From NCBI GenBank assembly GCA_002363705.1, contig DEWQ01000011.1, positions 154,168 through 218,167 on the forward strand: DNA of 64,000 nt, in the 5' to 3' direction. Below, in pieces: positions 1-63,957 of the stretch. The position numbers were made by a program, and so were the translations under genes. Within the stretch, counting starts at the first letter, position 1. Every line of letters starts with the position of its first letter. The notes beneath the pieces are model-generated. The model was given only the letters and a program-made list of their open reading frames with translations. It was not told where the DNA came from and did no database searches. This stretch comes from Bacillales bacterium UBA3206. GTDB lineage: Bacteria; Bacillota_I; Bacilli_A; Acholeplasmatales; Anaeroplasmataceae.

Positions 1-1183
1 GTATTAAATGAAATCTTTGAGGCGATTTCTATTACATTATTTACTTGTTGAATTTCATAATCTAATTTTTGATTAAATATATTTAATTCTTCGTTATAGT
101 TATCATCCCAATCTTCCTGTTCGTCTGCATCTAAGAAATTAAAGAAATCCTTAAGGCCTACTTCGGCTGATTGTTCTTTTGTTCCTTCTTTTAATTTTTT
201 AAGTCTAGTTTTAATCTTCTCAAAAGTTTCAATTAAGGCAAATGATGATGAAGCTAAAAGCTTTCTTACTACAAGAATACATAGATTTTTGTTTTGCCCA
301 GGAAAACCATATTCTGCAGTTTTAGCATATTTGTCTACTAACTCATACAAAATCTTTTCATCTTGAGATAATTCAAAATCCATAGTTATACACGTTCTCT
401 TAGCAAACTTCATTTCCTTAGCAACTTCTTTTCTTAAGGTTCTAACCATAATAGGACGAAGTTCGTTTTTTAACTCATCGTATTGTTGATTTTTTATAAA
501 TCTACTATTAAATACTTTTTCACTTTCAAATATTCTTGGGTCAATAAATGATACTAATCCATATAAATCATCTAATGAATTTTGTAATGGTGTAGCAGTA
601 AGTAATAATTTAGGAATCTTATGAGTTGAATCAAATAGATTCTTTGCGGTTTTAGTACCTTTAAAAACATTTCTCATATTATGAGCTTCATCAATTACCA
701 CTAAATCCCACTTAATATTTGCAAAATCCTGATGCTTTAAAAATCTAGAAGCTAATCTATAACTTAATATAATAACATGTGGTTCACCAGATTTATCAAA
801 AAAACTTCTAAGCCATCTTCTGCAATCTTTATCACTAATCCTAATTCCATCTATTACTTCAGATGGAATTTGAAATTTTTCTTGCAATTCTAATTGCCAC
901 TGTACTCTTAGAGCGGCAGGAGTTGCAATTAAAATATTTTGTTTCTTCTGTTTTAATAAATATTTCAAAACCAAACCAGCTTCAATTGTTTTACCTAAAC
1001 CTACTTCATCAGCTAGTATTATTCCACCTGTAGGAATAGAACTAATCGCCTTCAAAAAAGCATACATTTGATGTGTATTCTTTTGAATATTCTTATTATG
1101 AAGGCATCTAAAAGGAGAATTCTTTATTGTCTCAATTTTAGGCACAGAAAACTGTTCTATAATTCTATTATTATTATCCATAA
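1..1183 (-). CDS. SNF2-family helicase (N-terminal ~394 aa; 3' end runs off the window start)
   Basis: Manual minus-strand translation gives a start at 1183 behind an RBS (ggaagaaaggagaatattt). Walker A 'DEVGLGKTIEAG' and a DEAH box 'DEAHNMRN' match SNF2/helicase motifs I and II. It sits 20 nt downstream of the Dcm gene. Confidence 0.7.
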
Positions 1184-1203
1184 ATATTCTCCTTTCTTCC
1201 TTA

Positions 1204-2445
1204 TTAGAGTTGTTTTAATAGTTCTTTAGCAATCATTTCACTTATGATTGGTGGCACAGCATTACCAACTTGAATAAATTGTGCTGATCTGTTTCCTTCA
1301 AAGAAATAATCATCAGGGAATGATTGAATTCTAGCTGCTTCTCTAACGGTTATTGATCTACATTGATTAATATCAGGATGAATAAAATAGTGTCCATCTT
1401 TAGATAAATGAGCAACAATAGTTTGAGATGAACTTAGATTTGAAGCTATTACTTTAAATCTATCCAAGAAACATCCCCTATTATTATGTGTCCATAATTC
1501 TTCAGGTAAATCTGTATATTTTAATCTTTTATTATCATTGTTCCAAGCTTCAATAACTCGTCTATAAATTTCTGCATCATGCTCATTTAAATATCTTGCA
1601 CTATTAAGCGTTAAAATATCATTTTCAGTTCTTATGTTATACTTTTTCAAGTATTCAGGTATCTCAGTTGTTTTATATTGATCAGACGTTTCAGTTGGAT
1701 GTAAGACTGGCAAATCACTTAATAAATCTTTTAATGTATATTCATGATTTACAACTTCAAAATTAGGATAGAATCTTCCGCTTCCTCTTTTCCATCCAAT
1801 CAAAATTACTCTTTTTCTATTTTGCAATAAACCATAATCATCAAAATTAATTAAATGGTCCATTACTTCATATCCAATCTCATCTAATTTAGATTTTAAA
1901 TCACTAAAGTAATGTCCACCACCAGCAGTATATAACCCAGGAACATTTTCAAATACAAACATTTTCGGTTTATAGTGATCAACTATTTCAATATATCTTA
2001 AATACAAATGGTTTCTTGGGTCACTTTCCATTGAATCTTCACTTCTTGCCCTACCTACTAAAGAATAAGCTTGGCAAGGTGGACCTCCAATAATTACATC
2101 TATTTTTCTAATTCTTTTACTTCTTTTTATTCTTTCAATTCTTGAGTATAATTGATTCATTGTATCAGCAGAAATGGTATGTTCTATTACAGATGAAGTA
2201 ACTTCTTCAGGAACTGAATGATATAGTTCATCTCTAGATATCTCTTCTCTTAAGTATCTATAATATAAATTCATCATATTATTTTGCTTAAGATAATAGT
2301 AAACTGATCTAGTTTTTAAAGTTTCACAAGCATCTGAATTCATTTCTACGTGAGCTATATCAATATAGCCTTGTCTTTGAAAGCCTTCTGATAATCCTCC
2401 AGCCCCAGCAAACAAATCCAAGTATGATGGTTTCCTATTTGCCAT
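1204..2445 (-). CDS. DNA (cytosine-5)-methyltransferase
   Basis: C5-MTase motifs are present: I 'DLFAGAGGLSEGF', IV 'GGPPCQAYS', VI 'ENVPGL' and X 'QVGNAVPP'. The track ORF runs to 2529, but the M at 2445 (MANRKPSYLDLFAGAGG) has RBS 'gaaagga' and removes the overlap with the upstream gene. Confidence 0.85.
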   Translation of the reverse strand: MANRKPSYLDLFAGAGGLSEGFQRQGYIDIAHVEMNSDACETLKTRSVYYYLKQNNMMNLYYRYLREEISRDELYHSVPEEVTSSVIEHTISADTMNQLYSRIERIKRSKRIRKIDVIIGGPPCQAYSLVGRARSEDSMESDPRNHLYLRYIEIVDHYKPKMFVFENVPGLYTAGGGHYFSDLKSKLDEIGYEVMDHLINFDDYGLLQNRKRVILIGWKRGSGRFYPNFEVVNHEYTLKDLLSDLPVLHPTETSDQYKTTEIPEYLKKYNIRTENDILTLNSARYLNEHDAEIYRRVIEAWNNDNKRLKYTDLPEELWTHNNRGCFLDRFKVIASNLSSSQTIVAHLSKDGHYFIHPDINQCRSITVREAARIQSFPDDYFFEGNRSAQFIQVGNAVPPIISEMIAKELLKQL

Positions 2446-2446
2446 A

Positions 2447-2968
2447 TCATTTATCCTTTCTTCTTTTATCCCATAGAACAATTGCACATTCTTCAGATAA
2501 AAGGCATTTTTCAATATAATCTTTAACACTAAAACCTAAGGTCATATCCTCAGGGGCTAACAATTCTCCTGCTAAATAATTAGCTTGCCATTCAGGATTC
2601 TCATAAGCTTTAATCTCAGTATTTGTCTCTGCAACCCCAAATTTTAATACATAAAGCAATAAATAATGTGATAGTTCATGCGCTAAAGTAAATCTAGATC
2701 TACCAACATCATTTGAAGCTTCTTCGTAAACTGAATACTTTATATACATAGTATTACTACTAAGTTCATATAATGCTATTTCATCATCTTTTAATAACTC
2801 ACATTTATTATCCACTATTAAAAGATTAATCAATCCTTGGCAATGCAAATTATCAATTATTTCTAAAACAGGAAATACATATCCCATTACACCAAAATCA
2901 TTTCTAAACTTAATTGCAAGATCTTTAAGCTTTTTCTTACTTACTGGTGTGCATTTATAACTGCTCAC
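2447..2968 (-). CDS. ImmA/IrrE-family metallopeptidase (COG2856-like)
   Basis: It carries an HExxH motif 'HELSHYLL' and has a 4-nt overlap (ATGA) with the upstream XRE regulator, a typical ImmR/ImmA pairing on mobile elements. Confidence 0.65.
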   Translation of the reverse strand: MSSYKCTPVSKKKLKDLAIKFRNDFGVMGYVFPVLEIIDNLHCQGLINLLIVDNKCELLKDDEIALYELSSNTMYIKYSVYEEASNDVGRSRFTLAHELSHYLLLYVLKFGVAETNTEIKAYENPEWQANYLAGELLAPEDMTLGFSVKDYIEKCLLSEECAIVLWDKRRKDK

Positions 2969-3324
2969 TCTTCATCATCCGATTCCAAAATTTTACGTAG
3001 TTCTTCTAACTTCTTTTGTGATGCAGTATTTATTGTTCTTGCAAAGGCAAGAGTAACTTCTTGCTGTGCATCATTCATATCTTGTAAATCAATTGAAATC
3101 TTCTTATTTGTATAATCGATAGAATTTTTCAATTCTTTCGATTGCTCAGGAGTTAAATTGAAAATTTCCGTTAGTTTATCTCCATAGTTAATAGGTACAG
3201 CTTTTTTGTTATTTTCAATCAAACTTAAAAAAGGAACACTTACATCTAATTCCTGAGCTAATGTTTGTAAAGAAACATTATGCTCTTTTCTTAATTGACG
3301 TAAATAGAAGCCAAAAAGAATCAT
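2965..3324 (-). CDS. XRE-family HTH transcriptional regulator (ImmR-like)
   Basis: The N-terminal HTH_3 segment is 'LRQLRKEHNVSLQTLAQELDVSVPFLSLIENNKK'. Confidence 0.75.
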   Translation of the reverse strand: MILFGFYLRQLRKEHNVSLQTLAQELDVSVPFLSLIENNKKAVPINYGDKLTEIFNLTPEQSKELKNSIDYTNKKISIDLQDMNDAQQEVTLAFARTINTASQKKLEELRKILESDDEE

Positions 3325-3445: not shown

Positions 3446-3667
3446 TCACTTAAACTTTAATTTTTTAGGATTTATTTTTAATCTTTGATAAAAATCTTCT
3501 GCGATTATATAGTATGTTAATCTTGAATTATCTCCAACTCTCATTGCAACACCTGGTAAATATCCTCTTTTAATGCATTCTCTAACAGATTGCTCATTAA
3601 TATGTAATATCTTTGCTGCATCTTTAACGGATAATAAACGATCAGGTTCTTTCTTTTTACCCCACAT
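3446..3667 (-). CDS. Small HTH DNA-binding protein (excisionase/HTH_17-like)
   Basis: The 73-aa protein has a central HTH 'LSVKDAAKILHINEQSVRECIKRG' and overlaps the integrase gene end by 11 nt. Confidence 0.45.
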   Translation of the reverse strand: MWGKKKEPDRLLSVKDAAKILHINEQSVRECIKRGYLPGVAMRVGDNSRLTYYIIAEDFYQRLKINPKKLKFK

Positions 3668-4733
3668 ATTTCATATCCTCCTCAAATGCATCATTAACAA
3701 TTTTATATAAATCGCCAATACCAAAATGCGTATAGGTATCTTCATCAACATTTCCAGCACTATGTCCTGTTAATTTCTTTGTAAAAGTAGAATCTACTCC
3801 TCTTAGTCTTAATCTAGAAGTATATGTATGTCTAGTTTCGTGAATGGTATGATTCATATTAGACTTCTTTTTAAAATTATCAAATAAAACTCTTATCTGA
3901 CCATAATTATATTTATATGCACCATCATATAAAAAATATTCTTTATTCTTATTATATTGATGTAATACCATTTGATAAATACAACTAGGAATTGGAACTT
4001 TTCTAATACCATTATTTGTTTTTGAATTAGTTATTGTTATATATCTTTCTTGTAAATTTAGATCTTTAGTTTTCAATTCTAATAATTCACTTATACGTAA
4101 TCCTGTGTATAAAAGTATTAAAAGAATTCTATAAATTAATTCACCGCTATTCTTCCAAATATATTCTATTTCTGATTCTTTATATACATTTTTAATCTTC
4201 TTTTTATATGCTTTTTTATATTTATCAAATTTTACAAATTTTGAATAGTTCTTATCAACAATGTCATTACCTATTGCATAATTATATAGTTGATTTAATA
4301 GTATCTGCATTTTCTTTATCATTGGATAATTCTTATTAGATTTAGTAATTGCTAGTTCTATATCAGCTGTCTTAATAGAATCAAAATATAAATCATGAAG
4401 ATGCGATAATCCATTAAATGCTGCATTATATGATGTTTTTGAACTATTAGATAATTGTTCATTTGAATTGCTCCATTGAATATATACATCACTAAATAAT
4501 AATCTTAAAGCATCTTTATTATAACTAACACCAATATAATCATTTAAAGCTTCTTCAGCTTCTTTTTTATTTTCATAATAACCAATAACCTTATATGATT
4601 GCTTAAATTTAGGTATACCATTTTCTTTTTTAGCTTCTTCAAAACCTCTAGTAACTTTAGCTACCCAAGGTCTTCTTCTTTTAACATCACTAAGCTTATA
4701 TACAGTACCAGTACCATTTATTCTTTTAGACAT
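3657..4733 (-). CDS. Tyrosine site-specific integrase
   Basis: The C-terminal catalytic region reads 'HETRHTYTSRLRLRG...LTGHS...YTH' (R..HxxR..Y), preceded by a SAM-like N-terminal domain. Confidence 0.85.
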   Translation of the reverse strand: MSKRINGTGTVYKLSDVKRRRPWVAKVTRGFEEAKKENGIPKFKQSYKVIGYYENKKEAEEALNDYIGVSYNKDALRLLFSDVYIQWSNSNEQLSNSSKTSYNAAFNGLSHLHDLYFDSIKTADIELAITKSNKNYPMIKKMQILLNQLYNYAIGNDIVDKNYSKFVKFDKYKKAYKKKIKNVYKESEIEYIWKNSGELIYRILLILLYTGLRISELLELKTKDLNLQERYITITNSKTNNGIRKVPIPSCIYQMVLHQYNKNKEYFLYDGAYKYNYGQIRVLFDNFKKKSNMNHTIHETRHTYTSRLRLRGVDSTFTKKLTGHSAGNVDEDTYTHFGIGDLYKIVNDAFEEDMKYVG

Positions 4734-6040
4734 TATTGTTCCATCTCCCTTTCTCTTTTTTCCTTCATTAAATTATAATAATCATTATCTGATAAATTAT
4801 ATCCTTCATATTCTAATGTATCATCTAAGTCTTCATGCCAATGATTACGCTTAGCATTACCCATATTTGACTCATTATAAGCAATTTCTTGTAATATGCC
4901 CATAAATCCTTTAGCAAGTGTTTTAAATAACTCACAACAAGCATCATTCGTTTTATAAACTTCCTTACGGCGTTCTTCCCATTCACCTTTTTTAACATCA
5001 CCTTTAGTGATAGTTTTCTTATTTAGAATATCTCTACCTTTAAAATAATTTTTAAGTTCATTCTTACACATATCCTCTTTTATAGCTTTCATAAACTTTA
5101 AAATCTTATTACCACATCTTTTATGTAAGTCAGCCATATGAGAATTGTAATGAGCTGTAAGTTCTTTTTTTGCTCTTTCAGGTGGATAATTATGATATTT
5201 TAATTCCCGCTTGGCTCTTTCAAATGCATTATAAGAAAAGAGTTCATAAGGACTTTTATTAGAATATTTCCAATTAAAGAAATGTTTAGTTAACTCATTT
5301 ATTAATTGTTTATCTTTAGGTTCTAGTTCCATGTAATTCCAGCTGTGATCTTTAGATAACTGTTTTTCAGTAACCATGAAATCATCTAACAATTCCATCT
5401 CTTTAGATAATCTAGAAATACCAGCAATACATCTTCCTCTTGATTCAATTAATTCTTTAACAAATGGTTTCTTTTCCATAGAATCAATTATAAAATCATG
5501 AGCTTTTACCAATTGAGATTTTGAAAATAAAGTGCTCGAAAAACAATGCTCACCTTTACCATTCACCTTAAGCTTTTCTTCTTCCCAAAAAATAAAATGA
5601 ATGTGAGGGTGTAATGTATTTTTATGAAGACTTATGAATGTATTAACATTTTCTGGTAACAAACCAAGTTTCTTAAACATATCAGGAAAGTTCTCAACCA
5701 TTAATTTATGGGCATCTTCCGGCGTTTCAAGTCTACCTTGAGCATATTCAGGAAGAAAACTCAAGACTCCAGACCAAATAGGACCTTTATGATTGTTTAA
5801 AGATTCCTTTATTTCAGGCAATTTATCATCCGTTATTTCACCATCATAATTGTATAATCCTGTACTTCCTGGTCTATATTTGGTATATCCAATGATTGTA
5901 TTATCAACAGACTTTTCTACAGCTTCTTCTCGTGATAAATATGTAACACAATTAAAGCCTTCTTGTTTCTTACAACTATAAAAATCATCATTGTAATGTG
6001 ATTTTATGTTTAATATGATTGCTTTAGATAAATTAACCAT
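4733..6040 (-). CDS. Putative relaxase (MOBP/MOBQ-like 3-His motif) / HUH endonuclease
   Basis: 'SLHKNTLHPHIHFIFW' fits the H-x4-H-x-H relaxase motif III. It overlaps a small RHH gene upstream by 1 nt and the integrase downstream by 1 nt. Confidence 0.45.
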   Translation of the reverse strand: MVNLSKAIILNIKSHYNDDFYSCKKQEGFNCVTYLSREEAVEKSVDNTIIGYTKYRPGSTGLYNYDGEITDDKLPEIKESLNNHKGPIWSGVLSFLPEYAQGRLETPEDAHKLMVENFPDMFKKLGLLPENVNTFISLHKNTLHPHIHFIFWEEEKLKVNGKGEHCFSSTLFSKSQLVKAHDFIIDSMEKKPFVKELIESRGRCIAGISRLSKEMELLDDFMVTEKQLSKDHSWNYMELEPKDKQLINELTKHFFNWKYSNKSPYELFSYNAFERAKRELKYHNYPPERAKKELTAHYNSHMADLHKRCGNKILKFMKAIKEDMCKNELKNYFKGRDILNKKTITKGDVKKGEWEERRKEVYKTNDACCELFKTLAKGFMGILQEIAYNESNMGNAKRNHWHEDLDDTLEYEGYNLSDNDYYNLMKEKREREMEQ

Positions 6041-7807: not shown

Positions 7808-7834
7808 TTTTTAATTACTACGGTCACTTTTTTT
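7802..7834. terminator. Bidirectional rho-independent terminator between convergent genes
   Basis: A ccgtagt/actacgg stem has T-runs on both sides. Confidence 0.5.
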
Positions 7835-8657
7835 ATAATTTAAAATCAATTATATTTGTTATTTTATCATCAACCTTTTTCTTCTTACATATATTTAAAG
7901 AATTAAAGAATAGTTTTATTTCATCTTTTAAAGGTATTAGCATTTCTTCACCATTTGAATAAACTTTTTTTCTAAGAGTAAATTCTAAATAGCTACCTCT
8001 TGTATCATCTAAATAGTTTAAATATATATTGAAGCAAGTCTTATTATTAATTTCTTCCATCATAGGATTAATAACACGTTTAGTTAACTCAACCAGTTTA
8101 TTATAACTAGCTAAATTATCTTTATATTTACAATATTCTGATAATTTATGACTATGTATTACTATACTTTTTGATGGATCTGAATTTAATAACATATATA
8201 AAATCATACCAGCATACTTTTGTGTCATATTTAAAAATGATATAAGCATATCATAATCATACTTTATAATATGAGAAAATATCTTATTATATGCTTCACT
8301 TGTTATAACAAACTCTAAAGTACTAATATCAGGATTATATTTATAATCTTTTAGAATTAATACATCAAGAAAAGTTTTAGTCTTAAATTCATCAAGTCCA
8401 TCATAAAACATTTTCTTTCTAGCGGTATCAAAGCTATTATTATTAGCTATAATCTTACGCACTCTAGTATATGAACATATAATCTTAATATCTTCATTTT
8501 CGTTATACACTCCTTTCGATTTTTTTAATGCCATTGCAAGCAAAATTACAGTAAGTTGTTGAAACCTTGTCATATAGAAGAATAATGCTGGATTACCACA
8601 TTCTAATCCTTCAATCACTTCTTCATTTTTTGTAATAAAATCATTGTTCTTTTCCAT
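7833..8657 (-). CDS. Hypothetical protein (possible plasmid/element replication initiator)
   Basis: The 274-aa protein has no recognisable catalytic motifs; the replication-initiator call rests only on its position inside the element. Confidence 0.25.
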   Translation of the reverse strand: MEKNNDFITKNEEVIEGLECGNPALFFYMTRFQQLTVILLAMALKKSKGVYNENEDIKIICSYTRVRKIIANNNSFDTARKKMFYDGLDEFKTKTFLDVLILKDYKYNPDISTLEFVITSEAYNKIFSHIIKYDYDMLISFLNMTQKYAGMILYMLLNSDPSKSIVIHSHKLSEYCKYKDNLASYNKLVELTKRVINPMMEEINNKTCFNIYLNYLDDTRGSYLEFTLRKKVYSNGEEMLIPLKDEIKLFFNSLNICKKKKVDDKITNIIDFKL

Positions 8658-8806: not shown

Positions 8807-8849
8807 AAAAAACGCATGATAAATTGCACCGATTTAGCATGCGTTTTTT
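8807..8849. terminator. Bidirectional rho-independent terminator
   Basis: aaaaaacgcatg...catgcgtttttt forms a 12-bp stem flanked by A/T runs. Confidence 0.6.
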
Positions 8850-8867: not shown

Positions 8868-8896
8868 TTTGTTAGTTATTTGTTAGTTACGATATA
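8868..8896. repeat. 29-bp direct repeat, copy 1 (tttgttagttatttgttagttacgatata)
   Basis: It is identical to 10067..10095 and contains an internal tandem ttgttagtta(t/c). Confidence 0.9.
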
Positions 8897-8928
8897 GCAC
8901 TAATTAATCATTAAATGATATCTATGTG

Positions 8929-10014
8929 CTAATCAAGTACATCTACAGCTTCAACTAAAAATGACGGGTCAAAATGAGTATATACTCTTTCAGTAAGTGA
9001 CTGTGTATTTGCATGTCCTACTATCTTCTTTAGAATGGTTTCATTCATATTCTTTTCACTGCACATACTAATAAAGGTATGTCTTGTGTCATGAACTAAA
9101 TGTTTTGTTCCTAATAATTCATTAATTTGTGAAAAATAGTAATCTCTATAATATCTATATAGTAATGGATCATGATTTGTATTTTCAAATAATAATTCAT
9201 TATCATTTCTATTCATCCAACTCTCGAAATATGGATAAATCTTCTTACAAATAGGAACAACTCTAATACCAGCTGATGTCTTACTTGCTGTAACATTAAA
9301 ATATCTTTCTTTTAGGTTTACTTCACATTTCTTTAAATCCAATAATTCAGATATTCTAGTTCCAGTATATATAAGCATTAAAGTAATGCTTTTAACATCA
9401 GATTCAGGCATATCCCAAATCTTTTTAACGTCTTCTTTAGAAAATTTCTCTCTATCACGCTTATTTGGATTCTTATTTGAATATTTAGCTATATCTACTA
9501 ATTCAGCATAATTCTTATCCACATATTCATTTTTTAAAGCAAATTTATATAGCATATTAAGCAAGAATTTCATTTTACGGATAGTTGAATAGTTCTTTCC
9601 ACTATCAGCAATAATTCGCTCATAATCTCTTGTTTTAAGTGAAGCGAATACTTTATTATGAATTCCTACAAAGCCTTTAAAAGCGGCATTATAACCATTC
9701 GTAGTGGATTTTGATGTTGTAGGAAAAAAGTCTTTACTCCACTTATCAAATATATCTTTAAATTTATATTTGCATTCAGGTGTAACAACTACTTTAGTCT
9801 CATTAGGATTCTTTAGTAAATCACTATTATAAGACATAAGCATGTTAAATCCATCTTGGTAAGTTTTAGCATATCCGATGGTTTTTATAATTTGTTTTTT
9901 CTTTCCATTTACTTCTTCAAATCCTATAGTCTTTCTAACTATGTATGGATTTCTTCTCGTTCCTTTAAGTTTGTAGACTTGTCCTACTCCTTGTGGTAAT
10001 TTCATTTTTCTCAT
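8929..10014 (-). CDS. Tyrosine site-specific integrase (second copy, distinct sequence)
   Basis: The C-terminus reads 'HDTRHTFISM...IVGHANTQSLTERVYTHF'. Confidence 0.85.
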   Translation of the reverse strand: MRKMKLPQGVGQVYKLKGTRRNPYIVRKTIGFEEVNGKKKQIIKTIGYAKTYQDGFNMLMSYNSDLLKNPNETKVVVTPECKYKFKDIFDKWSKDFFPTTSKSTTNGYNAAFKGFVGIHNKVFASLKTRDYERIIADSGKNYSTIRKMKFLLNMLYKFALKNEYVDKNYAELVDIAKYSNKNPNKRDREKFSKEDVKKIWDMPESDVKSITLMLIYTGTRISELLDLKKCEVNLKERYFNVTASKTSAGIRVVPICKKIYPYFESWMNRNDNELLFENTNHDPLLYRYYRDYYFSQINELLGTKHLVHDTRHTFISMCSEKNMNETILKKIVGHANTQSLTERVYTHFDPSFLVEAVDVLD

Positions 10015-10066
10015 AATTTTATCTCCTTGTTACCTAATTTTTTTATAGTAATAACAAGTAGCATAA

Positions 10067-10095
10067 TTTGTTAGTTATTTGTTAGTTACGATATA
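10067..10095. repeat. 29-bp direct repeat, copy 2
   Basis: It is a perfect match to 8868..8896. Confidence 0.9.
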
Positions 10096-10224
10096 AAAAA
10101 TGCATAAGAATTACATTCTTTTATCAAAAACAAATTAAAGTAACAAATTTACCAAAAAACCTTGAAAAATGGCTTAACAAAGCCAAAAAAAAGCCACGCA
10201 TTCGAGAATATGCGTAGCTCTTTT

Positions 10225-10276
10225 ATCTTTTTCTTTGCAATTATAATAATCAAACAATTAACGCTTAGAGAATTGT
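10225..10276. repeat. ~52-bp imperfect direct repeat, copy A (atctttttctttgcaattataataatcaaacaatt...cttagagaattgt)
   Basis: It matches 11824..11879 with a few substitutions and one short indel. Confidence 0.8.
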
Positions 10277-10423
10277 TTTAAATAACCAAAAAACTAGAAA
10301 AAACCGCATCACTAAAGGATTTTTACTACTTTTAGATGATTTATTTTAAATATTAAATTCGGGCACTCATCGGGAACCACCCGTTACTAAGTGTTATCAA
10401 ACAACACTATTTTAACTTAATTC

Positions 10424-10666
10424 TCATTCACGTGCAATCTTTAATTTTTTTCTAGAAATCAATTCTAACATTTCCTCTTTATTGTTATGGATTCTATCGT
10501 CAATCACCAATTCTAGTAGAAGCTTCAATGCATCTCTGATTTCTTTTCCAGCAAGTCCTAATCTAATCAAATCATATCCATCTACTGATAAATCAGACAA
10601 GGCTGAAGTCGAATTAAATGATGCTGGTATTAAATTATATAACTCAAAATAATTGAATTTTACCAT
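10424..10666 (-). CDS. Hypothetical 80-aa protein (weak resemblance to the C-terminal tail of CCA-adding tRNA nucleotidyltransferases)
   Basis: Its start overlaps the Fic stop by 7 nt. 'GYDLIRLGLAGKEIRDALKLLLELVIDD' recalls the C-terminal segment of Bacillus CCA enzymes, but the similarity was judged by eye only. Confidence 0.3.
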   Translation of the reverse strand: MVKFNYFELYNLIPASFNSTSALSDLSVDGYDLIRLGLAGKEIRDALKLLLELVIDDRIHNNKEEMLELISRKKLKIARE

Positions 10667-11715
10667 TCTTTAATTAAATCATATAAATAATTATTCTTAT
10701 ATATTTTTTCTTTTCCAACTTGCTCTGAAGTTAAAACACCCAATTCTTCTAATTCTGAAAGATATTTTCCTGCTGTATTTCTAGAAACGGATAATTTCTC
10801 TCTTAAATATTCATTTTTAGTATAAAAATCATAAAATAAATATTCTATTAATTCTTCAGAATAAATCTTTGGTTTATTTTGCTTCACTAGATTTTTGCAA
10901 TTATCCATCGCTTTTCTAAATTTATCAATAAATCCTAAAGTGAATATGGATGTTTGTTCAACTCCATTAATCATATATAACAAATAATTTTTTATATATT
11001 TATTATCAATCCTCATATCATAAAGGCATTTATAATATTCTTCCCTATTTGAATTAATATATTTTGACAAATATAAAATAGGAAGAGATAACTTTTGTTG
11101 TAAAACTAAATATAATACATTTAAGATTCTTCCTGTTCTACCATTTCCATCATGAAATGGATGAATTGATTCAAATTGATAATGAATCATAGACATCTTG
11201 ATAAGCGGATCTGTATTTTCAAGTTCATCATAATTAATGTATTTTTCTAGGTTTGATAAATAATCTCTTATTTCATTCTCACTTTGAGGTGGATTATGAA
11301 GTATTTCTTTGGTTTTAGTATTCATAATAACTGTACCTGGTATCTTTCTAATTCCACCAACATTAGGTTCAATGATATGATGAATTTCTTCAATTATCTT
11401 TGAACTAATAAATCCGTTATCCTTAACTTGAGAGAATCCATATAAAATAGCTTGACGATAATTAACAACCTCTTTAGATGCAGAATTTTGATTTTTAAGG
11501 GTTATCTCCTTAAACACCTCATCAAAAGTTGTTACTATATTTTCAATCTCACTTGATTCTTTTGCTTCACCTAATATAACAGCATTTAGTATAATATTAG
11601 GATTTGGCATTGTATTAATGATACCATTCAATTCTCCTAATTTACTATTTGCTTTATTTAATGCCTTAAGAATATCAATATCATCATAATTATATTCAAA
11701 TGGTAATTTGTGCAT
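10660..11715 (-). CDS. Fic-family protein (class II, auto-inhibited AMPylase) with C-terminal wHTH
   Basis: The Fic motif is 'HPFHDGNGRTGR' and an N-terminal inhibitory motif 'SSEIEN' fits (S/T)xxxE(G/N). The track ORF extends to 12033, but the M at 11715 (MHKLPFEYNYDD) has RBS 'gaaggtga' and the upstream stretch is repeat and terminator DNA. Confidence 0.8.
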   Translation of the reverse strand: MHKLPFEYNYDDIDILKALNKANSKLGELNGIINTMPNPNIILNAVILGEAKESSEIENIVTTFDEVFKEITLKNQNSASKEVVNYRQAILYGFSQVKDNGFISSKIIEEIHHIIEPNVGGIRKIPGTVIMNTKTKEILHNPPQSENEIRDYLSNLEKYINYDELENTDPLIKMSMIHYQFESIHPFHDGNGRTGRILNVLYLVLQQKLSLPILYLSKYINSNREEYYKCLYDMRIDNKYIKNYLLYMINGVEQTSIFTLGFIDKFRKAMDNCKNLVKQNKPKIYSEELIEYLFYDFYTKNEYLREKLSVSRNTAGKYLSELEELGVLTSEQVGKEKIYKNNYLYDLIKEW

Positions 11716-11823
11716 ATCATCACCTTCTGCACAAATTTTATCATTTTTTGTGCACGTTGTCAATTCGTGCACAATATCAATTTGAAACAAAAATAAAAAG
11801 CAGGGTGAGAAGTCCTGCTTAAT

Positions 11824-11879
11824 ATCTTTTTCTTTGCAATTATAATAATCGAACAATTTACTAAGGCTTAGAGGCTTGT
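11824..11879. repeat. ~52-bp imperfect direct repeat, copy B
   Basis: It matches 10225..10276; together the two copies bracket the Fic module. Confidence 0.8.
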
Positions 11880-11955
11880 AGTGCACAACTAACACCTTAG
11901 TTAAGAAGTTTTTATTTGTGTTAAAGGTACTGCTATATTTTACGATTTTTTTCTT

Positions 11956-12041: not shown

Positions 12042-12446
12042 CTATCTCTTAGAGAATTGTGGAGCACGACGAGCCTTCTTAAGACCGTACTTCTTACGCT
12101 CCTTAGCACGTGGATCACGTGTAACAAGACCAGCTGGCTTTAATGTAGCACGATAATCTGGGTTAACTTCCATTAATGCACGAGTGATTCCTAGACGGAT
12201 AGCTCCAGCTTGTCCAGTCATTCCTCCACCAAATACATTAACGATTACATCGAACTTATTTAAGTTCTCTGTAAGCTCAAGTGGTTGAAGGGCGTCAAGT
12301 CTAGCTAGAGGGTTAGTAATATACTCCTCAAATGCTCTACCGTTAACAGTAACCTTTCCTTCACCTGCTTGTAAAATAACTCTAGCAACAGAAGTCTTAC
12401 GACGTCCTGTTCCGAAATATTGAACCTTAGTATTCTTCTTAGCCAT
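12042..12446 (-). CDS. rpsI: 30S ribosomal protein S9
   Basis: The full-length 134-aa S9 ends in '...[12 protein letters not shown]'. Confidence 0.95.
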
Positions 12447-13036: not shown

Positions 13037-13730
13037 CATTAGCTTTATTTTCTTCCTCTATTTCCTTTAATAATTCTTGACGCATATCATCAAGTAGCTT
13101 TTGTTTAAGCTCCTCACTTGATAGCTTTTCTGAAGAATTTTCTTTTATCTTTTTCTTATTCTTTACAAGATAAATATTAACACTTTCAGTCAACATTATT
13201 AATAGAAATACAAATATTAATAATCCATAGATTAAATTTTTGTTTGACGCAAGCTTTCCTATATTTAAGAAATTAAATGTTTTAACATATATTCCTATAA
13301 GCATATCCGCTGTGACTAATTCATCATCAACCAAGGTATTATTATCACCCTTAACTATAAATCCACTATCTGTTATTTCAACTATTCTATGAACAATATA
13401 TAGTCCTTTAGTTTCACCAGATTCAGATTTATATATGATAATATCTCCAACATCACATGAATCATATGATATTTTCTTAAATATTATAGAATCCCCAGCT
13501 TTTATAGTTGGTTCCATACTCTTAGTTGGTACATATGAGTATGAGTATCCAAAATAGCTTACAGGCTTTTCTTCTCTTACAGCAATTACATTACATACAA
13601 GCATATAAATGATAAGTAATACAATTAATCCTATAAGAGAGCCTACTCCAATTGTTAATCCCTTTTGCACCTTTGGAGGTAGCTTTGATTTTAACCTTTG
13701 TAGTAAGCCTTGCTTTTTAGTCTTCGTCAT
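13020..13730 (-). CDS. ER/archaeal-type signal peptidase I (SipW-like) with C-terminal TM and charged cytoplasmic tail
   Basis: It has 'KSMEPTIKAGD' (Ser box), 'VHRIV' (His box) and 'GDNN', with an N-terminal TM, a second TM and an acidic/Lys-rich tail. Its start overlaps the upstream gene by 14 nt. Confidence 0.75.
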   Translation of the reverse strand: MTKTKKQGLLQRLKSKLPPKVQKGLTIGVGSLIGLIVLLIIYMLVCNVIAVREEKPVSYFGYSYSYVPTKSMEPTIKAGDSIIFKKISYDSCDVGDIIIYKSESGETKGLYIVHRIVEITDSGFIVKGDNNTLVDDELVTADMLIGIYVKTFNFLNIGKLASNKNLIYGLLIFVFLLIMLTESVNIYLVKNKKKIKENSSEKLSSEELKQKLLDDMRQELLKEIEEENKANEEDGE

Positions 13731-16371
13731 TTTCCTTTGCCCTTGCAGCTAAAGCTTTAGCACGAATTGCTTCACGTCTACGACGTAATAGTTCACGTGG
13801 ATCAACCTTTTCACCTGTTGAAGGTGTGCTATCCATTGCAGGACGAGCTTGACTACGTTCTGCTAATGTTCTTTGCTTTAAAGCCTCACGTCTACGTCTT
13901 AGAACCTCTCTTGGGTCCTCTTCAGTAGCAGATGGGGCTGCAGCCTCTACAGGTGCAGTACCATTAGCCTGTGCTTGACGCTGTGCAAGTAATGCACGAC
14001 GACGAATAATATCCCTATTACGCTCAAACATTGCAGCAGATGCTCTTTGTGGTGCTACTGCTTCTGGTTTAGACTCCTCTTCGTCGTCCTCTGCAGAAAC
14101 AACATCCTTTGATTGCATCATACTCTCTTCAGCACGTTCTTTTTTACGTGCTTCAAATAATGCCTTATTATCAAGAGGCTTTTCTTCATCCTCATCCTCA
14201 TCAACAACTCTTGCTCCAGCCTTATCAGCTAATGCCTTTTGTCTTATAGCCTCACGTCTACGACGTAATAGCTCCTTAGGTGATAATGATTCCTCTTGAG
14301 CCTCTTCCTCTTCACCATCATCAGATGAGAAGTCATTTAATAATTGGTCTAGCTCATCATCAATTGCCTTAACCTCTGCATTCTCCTGCTCGTCTTCAGC
14401 TTCTGCCTCAGCCTCATCAGCCATAGCAGCCTTCATAGCCTCTTCCTTAGCACGGGCTGCAGCAGCCTTAGCCTTAATGATTTCACGTCTACGCCTAAGG
14501 ATTTCCTTAGCATCTAGATGAGCCTTAGAAGCTTCTAGCTCCTTCTCTTGCTCCTCTACCTTCTTAGCTTCAGCCTCAGCCTTAGCCTTAGCTTCTTCTC
14601 TTTCCTTAGCCTTTGCTTCACGAGCAGCCTTTCTTTCAGCCTTAGCCTTAGCCTGCTCAGCAAGAATACGTGCTCTACGCTCTTGAAGCTTAGCCTTTGT
14701 AGCCTCTTGAGCTGCCTTCTCCTTAGCACGGGCCTCATCACGCTCAGCCTTAAGCTTAGCACGCTCCTCCTTAGCCTTAGCTTCTAGCTCCTCTTGTCTA
14801 CGTCTAGCCTCTTCACGCTCAGCAGCACGTTTAGCAGCACGAGCTGCCTTCTCTTCTGCAAGCTTCTTAAGTCTTGCTTCACGAGCCTGTTGCTGACGAA
14901 TCTTCTCTTCAGTAGATTGAATCTCTGCTAGTGTATCCTCGTATTCTTTCTTTGTATTATTGTAATCTACTTCCTTAAGTCTAGTAATAGTATCTAAGAC
15001 ATCTGCTTTCTTCTTAGCACGCTCTAGCTTAACTGGAAGTGGAACCTCTTCAAATTCATCCTCAAATGGAACCTCAAATAGAGGTGGATAAATTGAGTTT
15101 ATTACTTCTTGCATTTCTCTAAACACAAGCTCTAGTGAATATTTCTTCTCCATTCCAGAGTTTACTTTATCCTCAAGAGATTGCTGGTAGAATTCCTGAG
15201 TCTTATTTAAGAAATACTCAGACATCTCAAATTTTTCGATATTTTGAGAATCTGGCTTAAATTTATACTCATCATCCATCTTACTTAGATTACGAGCATT
15301 ACGATATGTATGTGACTTATATAGGTCCTGATTCTCTAGGTCTCTAGAACCATTATAATATAGCATTGTACCTACTGAGTTAGCAAAAATCTTATCAATT
15401 GTTGATGCCATCTCATCAGTATATTTATTTTTCTTTTCACGTACATTTACATCGAATGCTAATTGGTTATATCTATCAAGGAAAACCCATGTATTATAAC
15501 AAATCTTGAATTCAGGATTTTTTGTAATAATGTTAGTCTTTTGAATTGGGGGTACTACCTCTTTATAATTCTTTAAGGCTTGCATTAGCTGAGAAGAACG
15601 AAGAGATTTAAATTTCTCTTGTACATCCTTTGCTTTTTCAAAGGTGTCACGAGCCATCTTAACCTCAGATTCCTGCTCAGATTCCATTTTAACTGATAAT
15701 TCAACCTTAACCTTAGTTTTATCCTCTAGCTTGAAATCATTAGTAATAACTGTACTACGTGTCTCATATGAATCTAGATTCTTCTTCATAATTTGAATAC
15801 GAAGTGATAAGAACTTACAAATACGGTTAATTAGAGTCTTAATGAAACGGTTCTCATAAATTCCTAGCTCATCCTCAGAGAATGTTGTTAATAGCTTTGA
15901 TGGAATAATATCCCCGTTTTCCTTAACCTGTTTAATAAATTGTGTATGTGAGGATAAGTGTCTTACGGTATCAGAATTAACCTTCTTAACCTTCTCCATA
16001 GGTACAACTTCTTCCTCATAACGAATTGCTTTCTTAGGATCCTTTAAAATTTTTGAGATACTCTTAAAGCAATCATTTAATACTGGTATAAATGATTTTT
16101 CAAAAATCTTAGTTTCACGAATAGTCTTTGAGTAAACTGTCTTCTTTCCACCTTGGATTTGCTTTAGTAAAGCAGCTCCCATAGCTGACTTAGTGACACT
16201 ACCCTTTAGGCTTTCCTCGAGAATGTGGTAGAACTCACTTACAGATGCATCATTCTTTTCTGCATCAGTTGGCTCTAAGACCTTTCCATCTGAGCTATCA
16301 CCATTCTCATTTAGTTTTTCATCGACAACGATAGATTGTTCAGTCTTTTGCTCTTCTTCCACATTGCTCAC
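13717..16371 (-). CDS. Large hypothetical protein: ~480-aa N-terminal globular region plus ~400-aa E/R/K/A-rich helical tail with 5 'LLRRRREAIRxKALA' repeats
   Basis: It has no TM or signal peptide. The tail is an ER/K-rich single-alpha-helix-like segment (AEEKAARAAKRAAEREEARRRQEELEAKAKEE...) with five periodic RRRRE motifs that recur at nucleotide level (cacgtctacgacgtaatag). It sits 28 nt downstream of the AAA gene. Confidence 0.55.
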   Translation of the reverse strand: MSNVEEEQKTEQSIVVDEKLNENGDSSDGKVLEPTDAEKNDASVSEFYHILEESLKGSVTKSAMGAALLKQIQGGKKTVYSKTIRETKIFEKSFIPVLNDCFKSISKILKDPKKAIRYEEEVVPMEKVKKVNSDTVRHLSSHTQFIKQVKENGDIIPSKLLTTFSEDELGIYENRFIKTLINRICKFLSLRIQIMKKNLDSYETRSTVITNDFKLEDKTKVKVELSVKMESEQESEVKMARDTFEKAKDVQEKFKSLRSSQLMQALKNYKEVVPPIQKTNIITKNPEFKICYNTWVFLDRYNQLAFDVNVREKKNKYTDEMASTIDKIFANSVGTMLYYNGSRDLENQDLYKSHTYRNARNLSKMDDEYKFKPDSQNIEKFEMSEYFLNKTQEFYQQSLEDKVNSGMEKKYSLELVFREMQEVINSIYPPLFEVPFEDEFEEVPLPVKLERAKKKADVLDTITRLKEVDYNNTKKEYEDTLAEIQSTEEKIRQQQAREARLKKLAEEKAARAAKRAAEREEARRRQEELEAKAKEERAKLKAERDEARAKEKAAQEATKAKLQERRARILAEQAKAKAERKAAREAKAKEREEAKAKAEAEAKKVEEQEKELEASKAHLDAKEILRRRREIIKAKAAAARAKEEAMKAAMADEAEAEAEDEQENAEVKAIDDELDQLLNDFSSDDGEEEEAQEESLSPKELLRRRREAIRQKALADKAGARVVDEDEDEEKPLDNKALFEARKKERAEESMMQSKDVVSAEDDEEESKPEAVAPQRASAAMFERNRDIIRRRALLAQRQAQANGTAPVEAAAPSATEEDPREVLRRRREALKQRTLAERSQARPAMDSTPSTGEKVDPRELLRRRREAIRAKALAARAKENDED

Positions 16372-62857: not shown

Positions 62858-62934
62858 TGGCGGTCCGGACGAGACTCGAACTCGCGACCTCCTGCGTGAC
62901 AGGCAGGCATTCTAACCAACTGAACTACCGGACC
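62858..62934 (-). tRNA. tRNA-Asp (GUC)
   Basis: Manual fold gives anticodon loop cugucac, with CCA encoded. Confidence 0.85.
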
Positions 62935-62947
62935 ATATTAATTTAAT

Positions 62948-63024
62948 TGGTTGCGGAGACAGGATTTGAACCTGCGACCTCCGGGTTATGAGCCCGGCGA
63001 GCTACCAGACTGCTCCACCCCGCG
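62948..63024 (-). tRNA. tRNA-fMet initiator (CAU)
   Basis: It has a C1:A72 mismatch and three G:C pairs in the anticodon stem (gggcucauaaccc). Confidence 0.85.
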
Positions 63025-63055
63025 ATGTAGTAAATAAAAACTTAATCACAAAAAG

Positions 63056-63131
63056 TGGTGGTCCAGGCGGGGATCGAACCCGCGACACCAGGATTTTCAG
63101 TCCTGTGCTCTACCGACTGAGCTACCGAACC
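63056..63131 (-). tRNA. tRNA-Phe (GAA)
   Basis: Anticodon loop cugaaaa. Confidence 0.85.
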
Positions 63132-63136
63132 ATAAG

Positions 63137-63227
63137 TGGCGGAGAAAGAGGGATTTGAACCCCCGCGGAGCTTTCGCCCCCTGTCGGTTTTCAAGACCGA
63201 TCCCTTCAGCCTCTTGGGTATTTCTCC
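63137..63227 (-). tRNA. tRNA-Ser (UGA), type II long variable arm
   Basis: The 91-nt sequence has anticodon loop cuugaaa and closely resembles Bacillus tRNA-Ser(UGA). Confidence 0.8.
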
Positions 63228-63270
63228 ATTATATTAGCTGCGATAAGTTAATATTTAATTTAAGTAAAAC

Positions 63271-63347
63271 TGGTGGACCCAGTAGGACTCGAACCTACGA
63301 CCGACCGGTTATGAGCCGGTAGCTCTAACCAACTGAGCTATGGGTCC
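63271..63347 (-). tRNA. tRNA-Ile2 (CAU, lysidine-type; alternatively elongator Met)
   Basis: Anticodon CAU. The body GGACCCAUAGCUCAGUUGGUUAGAGC... closely resembles Bacillus tRNA-Ile(LAU). Confidence 0.7.
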
Positions 63348-63359
63348 AAAGCATAAAGT

Positions 63360-63436
63360 TGGTAGCGGCGGAGGGATTCGAACCCCCGACCTAACGGGTA
63401 TGAACCGTTTGCTCTAGCCAGCTGAGCCACACCGCC
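63360..63436 (-). tRNA. tRNA-Met elongator (CAU)
   Basis: The body GGCGGUGUAGCUCAGCUGGCUAGAGC with anticodon CAU matches Bacillus elongator Met. Confidence 0.8.
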
Positions 63437-63484
63437 ATATGAATCTCTAATACTTACACTATTTTATTTAATTCACCAAATTAA

Positions 63485-63560
63485 TTGGTGGAGCTTAGCG
63501 GGATCGAACCGCTGACCTCCTGCGTGCAAAACAGGCGCTCTCCCAGCTGAGCTAAAACCC
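63485..63560 (-). tRNA. tRNA-Ala (UGC)
   Basis: It has the G3:U70 identity pair and anticodon UGC. Confidence 0.85.
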
Positions 63561-63571
63561 CTAATAAATAA

Positions 63572-63660
63572 GTGGTACCTCGGGTCGGAGTCGAACCGAC
63601 ACGGATTATTAGTCCATTGGATTTTAAGTCCAACGTGTCTACCTATTCCACCACCGAGGC
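63572..63660 (-). tRNA. tRNA-Leu (UAA), type II
   Basis: The 89-nt sequence has anticodon loop cuuaaaa. Confidence 0.8.
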
Positions 63661-63669
63661 AGATAGTAA

Positions 63670-63745
63670 GTGGTGTCCCGTAGCGAATTCGAATCGCTGA
63701 CCCCTTGATTAAAAGTCAAGTGCTCTACCGGCTGAGCTAACGGGA
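63670..63745 (-). tRNA. tRNA-Lys (UUU)
   Basis: Anticodon loop cuuuuaa. Confidence 0.85.
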
Positions 63746-63755
63746 CATAAATTAA

Positions 63756-63831
63756 GTGGTGCCGACAAAAGGAATCGAACCCTCAACCTACTGATTACAA
63801 GTCAGTTGCTCTGCCAATTGAGCTATGTCGG
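63756..63831 (-). tRNA. tRNA-Thr (UGU)
   Basis: Anticodon loop cuuguaa. Confidence 0.85.
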
Positions 63832-63881
63832 CATACCAATTAAATGATTCTGCTATGAGAAGCCTTTTAATTATTTATAAA

Positions 63882-63957
63882 TGGTGGAGGTTAACGGGCT
63901 CGAACCGCTGACCCTCTGCTTGTAAGGCAGATGCTCTCCCAACTGAGCTAAACCTCC
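63882..63957 (-). tRNA. tRNA-Val (UAC)
   Basis: Anticodon loop cuuacaa. Confidence 0.85.

What the first reader, a model, noticed from the sequence alone, without database searches (positions are those of the whole stretch)
8868..10095. Second tyrosine integrase bracketed by perfect 29-bp direct repeats (themselves internal tandem 'ttgttagtta' decamers)
tttgttagttatttgttagttacgatata occurs identically at 8868-8896 and 10067-10095, flanking only the 1.1-kb integrase gene. A perfect 29-mer twice within 1.2 kb cannot be chance. It could mark attL/attR of a decayed element reduced to its integrase, arm-type integrase-binding sites, or iteron-like regulatory repeats. Combined with the first integrase 4 kb away, the region looks like tandem site-specific insertions.
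Basis: seen in the sequence. Interest (0 to 1): 0.6.

Follow-up and report, generated by a model that had tools for sequence, protein, structure and literature searches.

The report
Integrase arm-binding repeats bracketing its gene
The two identical 29-bp repeats are most likely paired binding sites for the N-terminal domain of the integrase they flank, part of a mobilizable island inserted at the end of ribosomal gene rpsI, and not the ends of a mini-element; this is a familiar kind of site in an unusual duplicated layout.

Summary
TTTGTTAGTTATTTGTTAGTTACGATATA occurs exactly twice (8868-8896, 10067-10095), bracketing a 361-aa tyrosine integrase (int2, 8929-10014, minus strand). Each copy holds two 11-bp units (TAACTAACAAA on the int2 strand).

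These repeats are not the attachment core. The core is the 3' end of rpsI, present three times (12043-12060, 11823-11879, 10224-10276), which marks tandem accretion. The upstream 29-mer lies 169 bp inside the element, in a leader conserved in all relatives.

Integrases 36-46% identical to Int2, in phages and prophages, also target the rpsI 3' end. They carry 3-4 tandem TAACTAACA units about 113 bp from the core, in the same orientation, plus 1-2 units about 33 bp on the other side. This resembles lambda's P'/P arm sites. Int2 has an N-terminal three-strand-plus-helix domain.

The downstream copy is a lineage-specific duplicate. It occurs in relatives with at least 80% integrase identity and is absent at 76%. 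Its first unit is conserved, and at least five different cargo sequences follow it directly. No core-like sequence follows it.

Best reading: arm-type integrase sites. The role of the second cluster is unknown, possibly regulatory. This is a new member of a known kind, of modest interest.

The parts
10067..10095 (-). M(up): upstream 29-mer, TATATCG + 2 x TAACTAACAAA. Proposed P'-arm arm-type Int-binding cluster. It lies 53-81 bp upstream of the int2 ATG and 169 bp from the rpsI-type stop codon of the att core.
   Evidence: It is conserved with its leader in all relatives at 61-100% Int identity. It has the same motif, orientation and side of the core as the 3-4-unit clusters of phage relatives.
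8868..8896 (-). M(down): downstream 29-mer, starting 33 bp after the int2 stop codon. It is a lineage-specific duplicate of M(up) and forms the left edge of a cargo hotspot.
   Evidence: It is present (1-2 units) in all relatives with at least 80% Int2 identity and absent in the 76% lineage. Flank plus unit 1 varies at 1 of 18 columns, against 12 of 32 in the spacer (Fisher p=0.018). At least five different sequences follow it directly.
8929..10014 (-). int2: 361-aa tyrosine integrase with an N-terminal beta3-alpha domain (residues 12-68), a core-binding domain and a catalytic domain.
   Evidence: Pfam. R220, K245, H308, R311, H334 and Y345 are invariant in a 39-sequence alignment. AF2 model pLDDT 86. 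Foldseek best hits are Tn1549 Int and full-length lambda Int.
10224..10276 (-). Third copy of the rpsI 3' end (CAATTCTCTAAGCGTTAA, coding QFSKR*) plus 35 bp. This is the att core / left junction of the int2 element.
   Evidence: The same sequence directly ends rpsI in L005, L006, L020, L024, L036 and L037.
10187..10224 (-). Element-borne terminator hairpin downstream of the core. The 10096-10186 leader follows it.
   Evidence: The hairpin is identical in L005, whose rpsI is only 80% identical at the protein level.
11823..11879 (-). Second, diverged copy of the rpsI 3' end plus 39 bp (95% identical to 10224-10262). It is an accretion junction.
   Evidence: families D3, D5.
12042..12446 (-). rpsI, the target gene. 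Its present 3' end is at 12043-12060.
10660..11715 (-). Fic-domain gene lying between att copies 2 and 3, with no integrase. This is a CIME-like accreted island.
8808..8849 (-). Terminator hairpin that forms the right edge of the cargo slot. Only 18 bp separate it from M(down) here, so the slot is empty in this genome.
7833..8657 (-). Rep-like protein of 274 aa (weak Rep3_C match).
   Evidence: It is conserved next to the slot in L004, L005, L036 and L037.
4733..6040 (-). MobL-type relaxase.
3657..4733 (-). int1: second tyrosine integrase, 36% identical to Int2, with the same N-terminal motif.
3446..3667 (-). Excisionase-like HTH_17 protein (73 aa), overlapping the end of int1.

Best explanation
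The 29-mers are two clusters of arm-type binding sites. Each holds two 11-bp units, (C)GTAACTAACAAA. The proposed binder is the N-terminal domain of the heterobivalent tyrosine integrase Int2, and possibly of its paralogue Int1.

Shown: the host element is an integrative mobilizable island carrying int2, rep-like, HTH, MobL relaxase, int1, xis and defence cargo. It is inserted at the 3' end of rpsI, and that 3' end is the att core. M(up) lies 169 bp inside the element from the core, in a conserved leader just upstream of int2. M(down) is a 29-36-bp duplicate of M(up). It arose after the split from the 76%-identity lineage and has been kept at the 3' end of int2 since.

Inferred: M(up) corresponds to lambda's P' arm, where Int molecules bridge arm and core to build the integrative and excisive intasomes. 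Because it also sits in the int2 upstream region, it may let Int repress its own gene.

Speculative: M(down) is a second Int landing pad. It could loop with M(up) around int2 as regulation or an insulator, and it marks the last constrained base of the int2 module before a slot where cargo genes are exchanged. Binding itself has not been shown.
For: (1) The core is elsewhere. Three copies of the rpsI 3' end sit at the island junctions. In single-insertion relatives rpsI runs straight into the same core-terminator-leader-M-int2 string, always with a 169-bp gap.
(2) M(up) is conserved in every relative, including the remnant L028, the deletion derivative L031 and the chimera L008.
(3) Family-wide motif. 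Of 59 viral loci with Int 38-46% identical and at least 100 bp downstream, 21 have 11-bp-spaced TGTTAGTTA clusters just past int. None of 76 has one upstream, and there are none elsewhere in 298 kb. The complete genome of Butyrivibrio phage Arawn has 4 units plus 1-2 units about 140 bp further on.
(4) Those phages also use the rpsI 3' end. attP-type and integrated copies diverge at TTATCTCTTTGAGAACTG, the reverse complement of ...PQFSKR*. At least 13 loci carry rpsI convergent with int. The spacing from cluster to stop codon is constant at about 113-115 bp. A distal unit lies about 33 bp beyond the core, in the same orientation as in the window.
(5) Motif variants covary within an element: L083 has TGTAAGTTA x3 plus a distal copy of the same variant, and L123 has TGTTAGTTG.
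(7) M(down) shows constraint: 1 of 18 variable columns against 12 of 32 in the adjacent spacer, across 7 lineages.
Confidence: 0.65

Rival explanations
1. The 29-mers are attL/attR, or the P' and P arms flanking lost cores, of a minimal integrase-only element inserted ahead of a separate rep-mob-int1-xis element.
For: Both copies point the way expected for P' ... P sites of one integrated unit. Sequence variability starts immediately after M(down). Accretion demonstrably happens at this locus, and is reported for rpsI in streptococci (PMC5357655).
Against: No rpsI-3'-end-like or SKR*-coding sequence lies within 200 bp after M(down) in six lineages. The region after M(down) shows no similarity to the core or leader region: alignment score 20 against a shuffle mean of 20.3. 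The 29-mer lacks inverted core-type half-sites. int2 plus its repeats was never seen outside the rpsI-leader ... rep context. The int2-rep-mob-int1-xis modules co-diverge as one unit.
Confidence: 0.08
2. The repeats are operators for a different DNA-binding protein of the element, such as the excisionase-like HTH_17 protein or the 425-aa double-HTH protein. They would control int2 transcription and would not be Int N-domain sites.
For: M(up) lies 53-81 bp upstream of the int2 start and M(down) lies just past its stop, a geometry that suits a repression loop. Tandem 11-bp units on one helical face are also typical of excisionase (RDF) and regulator sites.
Against: Of the proteins tested across class A elements and the phage and prophage loci with the motif, only the integrase was found in both; rep was absent from the non-class-A loci. 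Xis and the HTH protein were not searched. The cluster keeps a fixed distance and orientation to the rpsI core, not to the int promoter. In phages it lies past the 3' end of int, on the other strand.
Confidence: 0.12
3. M(up) is a functional arm cluster, but M(down) is a functionless local duplication. It stays identical through gene conversion or recent origin, and the cargo boundary beside it is coincidental.
For: The 76% lineage lacks it. Unit number varies between 1 and 2 and point changes occur. Identity includes the 7-bp non-repeat flank, as expected for a copy.
Against: It is retained at the same position in at least 7 lineages with Int2 at 80-100% identity, while the adjacent 32-bp spacer has diverged at 12 columns. 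It always forms the exact left edge of the variable slot.
Confidence: 0.15

Closest known systems
Arm-type sites of lambda integrase (P1, P2 / P'1-P'3) and of other heterobivalent tyrosine integrases such as Tn916/Tn1549 Int (comparison from established knowledge)
   Same: Short (about 10-bp) direct repeats distinct from the core, spaced one helical turn apart. A tandem cluster lies on the int-proximal arm, and the phage relatives add 1-2 sites on the other arm. The integrase has an extra N-terminal beta-sheet-plus-helix domain. The best structural matches are Tn1549 Int and full-length lambda Int.
   Different: The motif is different (TAACTAACA). In this element the int gene follows the cluster in the same direction rather than converging on it. 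A second identical cluster sits past the 3' end of int on the same side of the core, 1.2 kb away; I know of no counterpart in lambda or Tn916, and none was seen in the phage relatives examined here.
Integrative mobilizable elements inserted in the 3' end of rpsI, with tandem accretion, as described in streptococci (IMESag-rpsI; Coluzzi et al. 2017, PMC5357655)
   Same: Tyrosine integrase targeting the rpsI 3' end. A relaxase is present and no conjugation pore genes were seen. Repeated copies of the target 3' end sit at junctions with decayed, integrase-less islands.
   Different: The host is an uncultured Anaeroplasma-like bacterium, not a streptococcus. The element carries two paralogous integrases (36% identical) within one att-bounded unit. 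Relatedness of Int2 to the streptococcal Tyr_4/5/7 families was not tested.
Uncharacterized rpsI-targeting temperate phages and prophages of Clostridia (for example Butyrivibrio phage Arawn, MN882550.2)
   Same: Integrase 36-46% identical. Same arm motif, same target (rpsI 3' end) and same orientation of the cluster relative to the core.
   Different: The phage cluster has 3-4 units about 113 bp from the core and lies downstream of int, which converges on rpsI. The window element has 2 units at 169 bp, int is co-directional with rpsI, and there is an extra downstream cluster.

Membership tests
Heterobivalent (lambda-Int-type) tyrosine integrase with arm-type sites | Catalytic R-K-H-R-H-Y residues in a Phage_integrase domain | tested here: met
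   Pfam PF00589 E=3e-21. R220, K245, H308, R311, H334 and Y345 are invariant in the 39-sequence alignment.
Heterobivalent (lambda-Int-type) tyrosine integrase with arm-type sites | Separate N-terminal arm-binding domain (three-stranded sheet plus helix) | tested here: inconclusive
Heterobivalent (lambda-Int-type) tyrosine integrase with arm-type sites | Repeated short sites, different from the core, at a fixed distance on the int-proximal arm | tested here: met
   M(up) lies 169 bp from the rpsI-type stop codon in the window, L005 and L020. Homologous clusters lie about 113-115 bp from the core in phage relatives.
Heterobivalent (lambda-Int-type) tyrosine integrase with arm-type sites | Arm-type site(s) on the other arm, at the far end of the integrated element | not testable with these tools
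   The far end of this element was not reached. This feature is met in phage attP relatives, where a distal unit lies about 33 bp beyond the core.
Heterobivalent (lambda-Int-type) tyrosine integrase with arm-type sites | Int N-domain physically binds the repeats | not testable with these tools
   Requires EMSA, footprinting or ChIP.
att core direct repeats (attL/attR) of an integrated element | The repeat is shared with the target site, and the outer flanks are chromosome | tested here: not met
   The target-derived repeat is the rpsI 3' end. The outer flanks of the 29-mers are the conserved element leader on one side and the terminator-rep module on the other.
att core direct repeats (attL/attR) of an integrated element | Core-type architecture: inverted half-sites around a 6-8-bp overlap | tested here: not met
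   The 29-mer is a tandem direct repeat of an 11-bp unit plus 7 bp.
Rep_3-type plasmid iterons | The repeats travel with, and lie adjacent to, the rep gene or origin, usually as 3 or more tandem 17-22-bp units | tested here: not met
   In L004, L020 and L036 there are 1.3-2 kb of cargo between M(down) and rep, and the repeat stays at the int2 stop. The L005 lineage has rep but no M(down). Non-class-A loci that carry the motif next to a related integrase gave no rep match.
Dispersed REP-like repeat | Many unlinked genomic copies | tested here: not met
   There are two copies in 64 kb. In 185,579 species genomes the 21-mer gives 20 stretches. About half of these are linked to this integrase family or to rpsI, and the rest are simple repeats in unrelated phyla. 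The MAG of this species has it only at this locus.
IME integrated at the rpsI 3' end | Integrase plus relaxase without a conjugation pore, bounded by repeats of the rpsI 3' end | tested here: inconclusive
   An integrase, a MobL relaxase and an excisionase are present, and the left junction(s) are defined. The right boundary was not reached, and the content beyond about 17 kb is unknown.

The most novel reading that the evidence does not exclude
Int2 with its two flanking arm clusters is a self-contained module. Int bound at M(up) and M(down) loops out its own gene, giving autoregulation or insulation. The downstream cluster would also serve as the fixed anchor of a recombination hotspot where defence genes are swapped in and out. 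That would make it an arm-site-directed cargo acquisition point rather than a passive boundary.
Probability: 0.1. Interest if true: 0.6.

Novelty: new member of a known kind. Interest (0 to 1): 0.3.

Why it matters
This result gives a concrete, testable arm-site motif (TAACTAACA, 11-bp period) and att geometry for a large, uncharacterized family of rpsI-targeting integrases. The family is shared by gut and rumen Clostridia phages and Anaeroplasma-type mobilizable islands that carry defence systems. Knowing the motif helps to delimit such islands and prophages in metagenomes. The duplicated cluster at the 3' end of int, which coincides exactly with a cargo-exchange slot, is a small oddity worth one experiment. 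The overall mechanism is textbook lambda-type recombination.

Tried and rejected
(1) Far end (attR) of the element. Look-ups from the methylase, xis and a ResIII helicase, plus two protein searches, returned only contigs that end inside the cargo, which resembles a DISARM defence system. The P-arm prediction for this element therefore stays untested.
(2) Core or leader similarity after M(down). No similarity was found, so the mini-element attR idea was rejected.
(3) Iterons for the Rep-like protein. Rejected on linkage.
(4) Known RNA family at the repeats. None found; the only weak sub-threshold hit covers the rpsI-end/terminator copy.
(5) Sigma-70 promoter over M(up). None was predicted.
(7) A third copy or partial copies of the 29-mer elsewhere in the window, and near int1/xis. 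None found.
(8) The IMESag-rpsI paper contains no att or arm-site description to compare with.

Full report
**1. Observation**

The 29-mer TTTGTTAGTTATTTGTTAGTTACGATATA occurs exactly at 8868-8896 and 10067-10095. No further copy appears in the window at up to 3 mismatches, and none appeared in 100 shuffles. It brackets one ORF, 8929-10014 on the minus strand. This ORF encodes a 361-aa Phage_integrase-family protein, here called int2. The internal repeat has an 11-bp period. On the int2 strand each copy reads TATATCG-TAACTAACAAA-TAACTAACAAA. I call the copies M(up) (10067-10095) and M(down) (8868-8896).

**2. Context**

Reading the minus strand, the order is as follows:
- rplM, then rpsI (12446-12042).
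- A 160-bp remnant, then a second copy of the rpsI 3' end (11879-11823).
- A Fic gene and a small gene fragment, then a third copy of the rpsI 3' end (10276-10224, coding QFSKR*).
- A terminator hairpin, a leader of about 90 bp, and M(up).
- int2, a short hairpin, M(down), 18 bp, and a terminator.
- A Rep-like gene, a double-HTH gene (on the plus strand), a 100-aa ORF, and a MobL relaxase.
- int1 (36% identical to Int2), then an excisionase-like gene.
- An HTH/ImmA pair, a Dcm methylase, and an SNF2 helicase that runs off the window.

The triplicated rpsI 3' end shows that the att core is the end of rpsI and that islands have accreted there. This situation is described for streptococcal IMEs (PMC5357655). 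There is no rpsI-end copy between int2 and int1.

**3. Close relatives**

- The same int2 protein occurs on nine metagenomic contigs with the same arrangement.
- A MAG labelled 'uncultured Bacillales bacterium' (L022, Int2 98% identical) has both copies, with one C>T difference between them.
- Anaeroplasma bactoclasticum ATCC 27112 (L020, 91%) and several rumen or gut contigs (L004, L036-L039, L041, L043) carry sister elements.
- In the single-insertion cases (L005, L006, L020, L024, L036, L037), rpsI runs directly into the core-terminator-leader-M(up)-int2 string. The gap between the stop codon and the first unit is 169 bp, as in the window.
- The terminator is identical between the window and L005 although their rpsI proteins are only 80% identical. 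The terminator and leader are therefore element DNA.
- M(up) persists in a remnant that retains only about 12 int2 codons (L028), in a deletion that fuses the leader to the last 52 codons of int1 (L031), and in an int2/int1 chimera (L008).

**4. The downstream copy**

M(down) is present in every relative with at least 80% Int2 identity. It has two units in the window, L022, L041, L043, L004, L038 and L039, and one unit in L020, L036 and L037. There are occasional point changes. It is absent from the 76% lineage (L005-7).

In L004 and L020 the similarity to M(up) extends 3-4 bp further (TTA/TTAT). M(down) therefore looks like a 29-36-bp duplicate of M(up) made after the L005 split.

Across seven lineages, TATATCG plus unit 1 varies at 1 of 18 columns, while the 32-bp spacer between the stop codon and M(down) varies at 12 (Fisher p=0.018). 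This is consistent with constraint or with gene conversion.

At least five unrelated sequences follow M(down) directly:
- nothing but 18 bp (window, L022, L041, L043);
- a 59-aa ORF plus a Vpar_1526-family gene (L004);
- an HD-domain gene (L020, L036, L037);
- two further, different sequences (L038, L039).

All of these end at the same terminator ahead of rep wherever the contig reaches it. M(down) is therefore the exact left edge of a cargo slot.

**5. The motif across the integrase family**

A scan of one genome per species for the 21-mer found 20 stretches. About half are next to rpsI or to this integrase family, in Anaeroplasma-type and Clostridia genomes. The rest are simple repeats in unrelated phyla.

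A profile search of viral contigs returned 80 loci with Int 38-46% identical to Int2. Of the 59 loci with at least 100 bp downstream, 21 carry three TGTTAGTTA units at 11-bp spacing just past int. None of 76 loci has such a cluster upstream, and there is none elsewhere in 298 kb. The 21 loci represent about six distinct lineages. Several loci have one or two further units about 165 bp beyond the cluster, in the same orientation. Sequence variants of the unit are shared between the cluster and the distal site within an element, as in L083 and L123. The complete circular genome of Butyrivibrio phage Arawn (Int 36% identical) shows 4 units plus 1-2 units.

**6. The same target in the phage relatives**

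I compared attP-type copies (L063, L061) with integrated copies (L059, L065, L071, L072, L057). They diverge at TTATCTCTTTGAGAACTG, the reverse complement of ...PQFSKR*. At least 13 viral loci contain rpsI convergent with int. The whole family therefore targets the rpsI 3' end.

The cluster ends about 113-115 bp from the rpsI stop codon, and the distal unit lies about 33 bp on the other side of the core. Read from the core, the units point the same way as M(up) does in the window. M(up) is thus the positional, orientational and sequence counterpart of a lambda-like P' arm cluster. It differs in having 2 units at 169 bp rather than 3-4 units at about 113 bp.

**7. The protein**

**8. Alternatives**

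- A mini-element bounded by the 29-mers would need a core next to M(down). No SKR*-coding or leader-like sequence lies within 200 bp in six lineages, and alignment to the attL region scores at the shuffle mean.
- Iterons are excluded by linkage: the repeat stays with int2, not with rep, and the non-class-A loci that carry the motif next to a related integrase gave no rep match.
- No Rfam family covers the repeats.
- No sigma-70-like promoter was predicted over M(up), so autoregulation is only a suggestion.

**9. Limits**

Binding has not been shown. The far end of this element could not be retrieved, so the predicted P-arm unit is untested here. The role of M(down) is inferred only from its retention and position.

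**10. Verdict**

The att-site reading is wrong, and the arm-type-site reading is well supported by comparative evidence. The duplicated cluster beside a cargo slot is a minor novelty. The finding is a new member of a known kind, with interest of about 0.3.

Noticed in passing
window 10224-10276, 11823-11879, 12043-12060: The 3' end of rpsI is present three times, at about 95% identity over 39 bp between copies 2 and 3. This marks tandem accretion of islands at the rpsI att site. A Fic/SoFic-like gene (10660-11715) sits between copies 2 and 3 with no integrase, so the island is CIME-like.
   Followed up: partly
window 1-3324 and L041 6940-16818: The cargo after xis is an HTH/ImmA(M78) pair, a Dcm methylase, an SNF2 helicase, an N6/N4 methylase, a ResIII helicase and proteins of 1009 or 1127 aa (depending on the contig). 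This resembles a DISARM defence system. Sister elements carry a pair of genes resembling Gabija, an OLD-TOPRIM ATPase plus a UvrD helicase (L004, L031).
   Followed up: partly
L008 241-1335; L031 3738-3914: Two natural rearrangements between the paralogous integrases. L008 encodes a chimera of Int2 residues up to about 170 and the Int1 catalytic half, which deletes rep-mob. L031 fuses the int2 leader, 9 bp after M(up), to the last 52 codons of int1.
   Followed up: partly
L031 3408-3429; window ~10350-10375 (minus strand): A different tandem 11-bp repeat (GGTTGCCTAAT x2) lies about 80-105 bp on the island side of an rpsI-end copy in L031. A degenerate counterpart (GGTTCCCGATG/AGTGCCCGAAT) sits at the equivalent place in the window, next to the conserved TTTTCTAGTTTTTTG. 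These may be binding sites of another recombination protein.
   Followed up: no
window 11880-11905 (minus strand): TTAACTAAG-G-TGTTAGTTG, an inverted pair of arm-like units, lies 6-25 bp before rpsI-end copy 2. It may be a P-arm relic of the decayed first island.
   Followed up: no
window 8891-8934; L020 5084-5109: A hairpin follows the int2 stop codon. It exists as two haplotypes that each keep their pairing, and L039 is a recombinant of the two.
   Followed up: partly
L017 3853-4000: In a Clostridia MAG, three arm-like units lie 112 bp after rpsI, which is the phage-type spacing. No integrase lies within the ~4 kb of the 8-kb locus beyond them. This is probably a decayed prophage end.
   Followed up: partly
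window 10424-10666: An 80-aa ORF gives a weak match to the C-terminal domain of a CCA-adding tRNA nucleotidyltransferase. It is likely a gene fragment carried in the Fic island.
   Followed up: no
window 13717-16371: An 884-aa ORF has a long, highly charged Lys/Glu/Ala/Arg-rich repetitive C-terminal half. Local GC rises to 45%, against about 30% in the surroundings.
   Followed up: no
window 62858-63957: A cluster of 11 tRNA genes lies on the minus strand at the window end, in a region of raised GC content.
   Followed up: no
window 10184-10282: A sub-threshold Rfam hit to the Staphylococcus sRNA sau-5971 (29 bits against a gathering score of 90) covers the rpsI-end copy plus terminator. It probably reflects a conserved rpsI 3' UTR/terminator shape and not an sRNA.
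   Followed up: no
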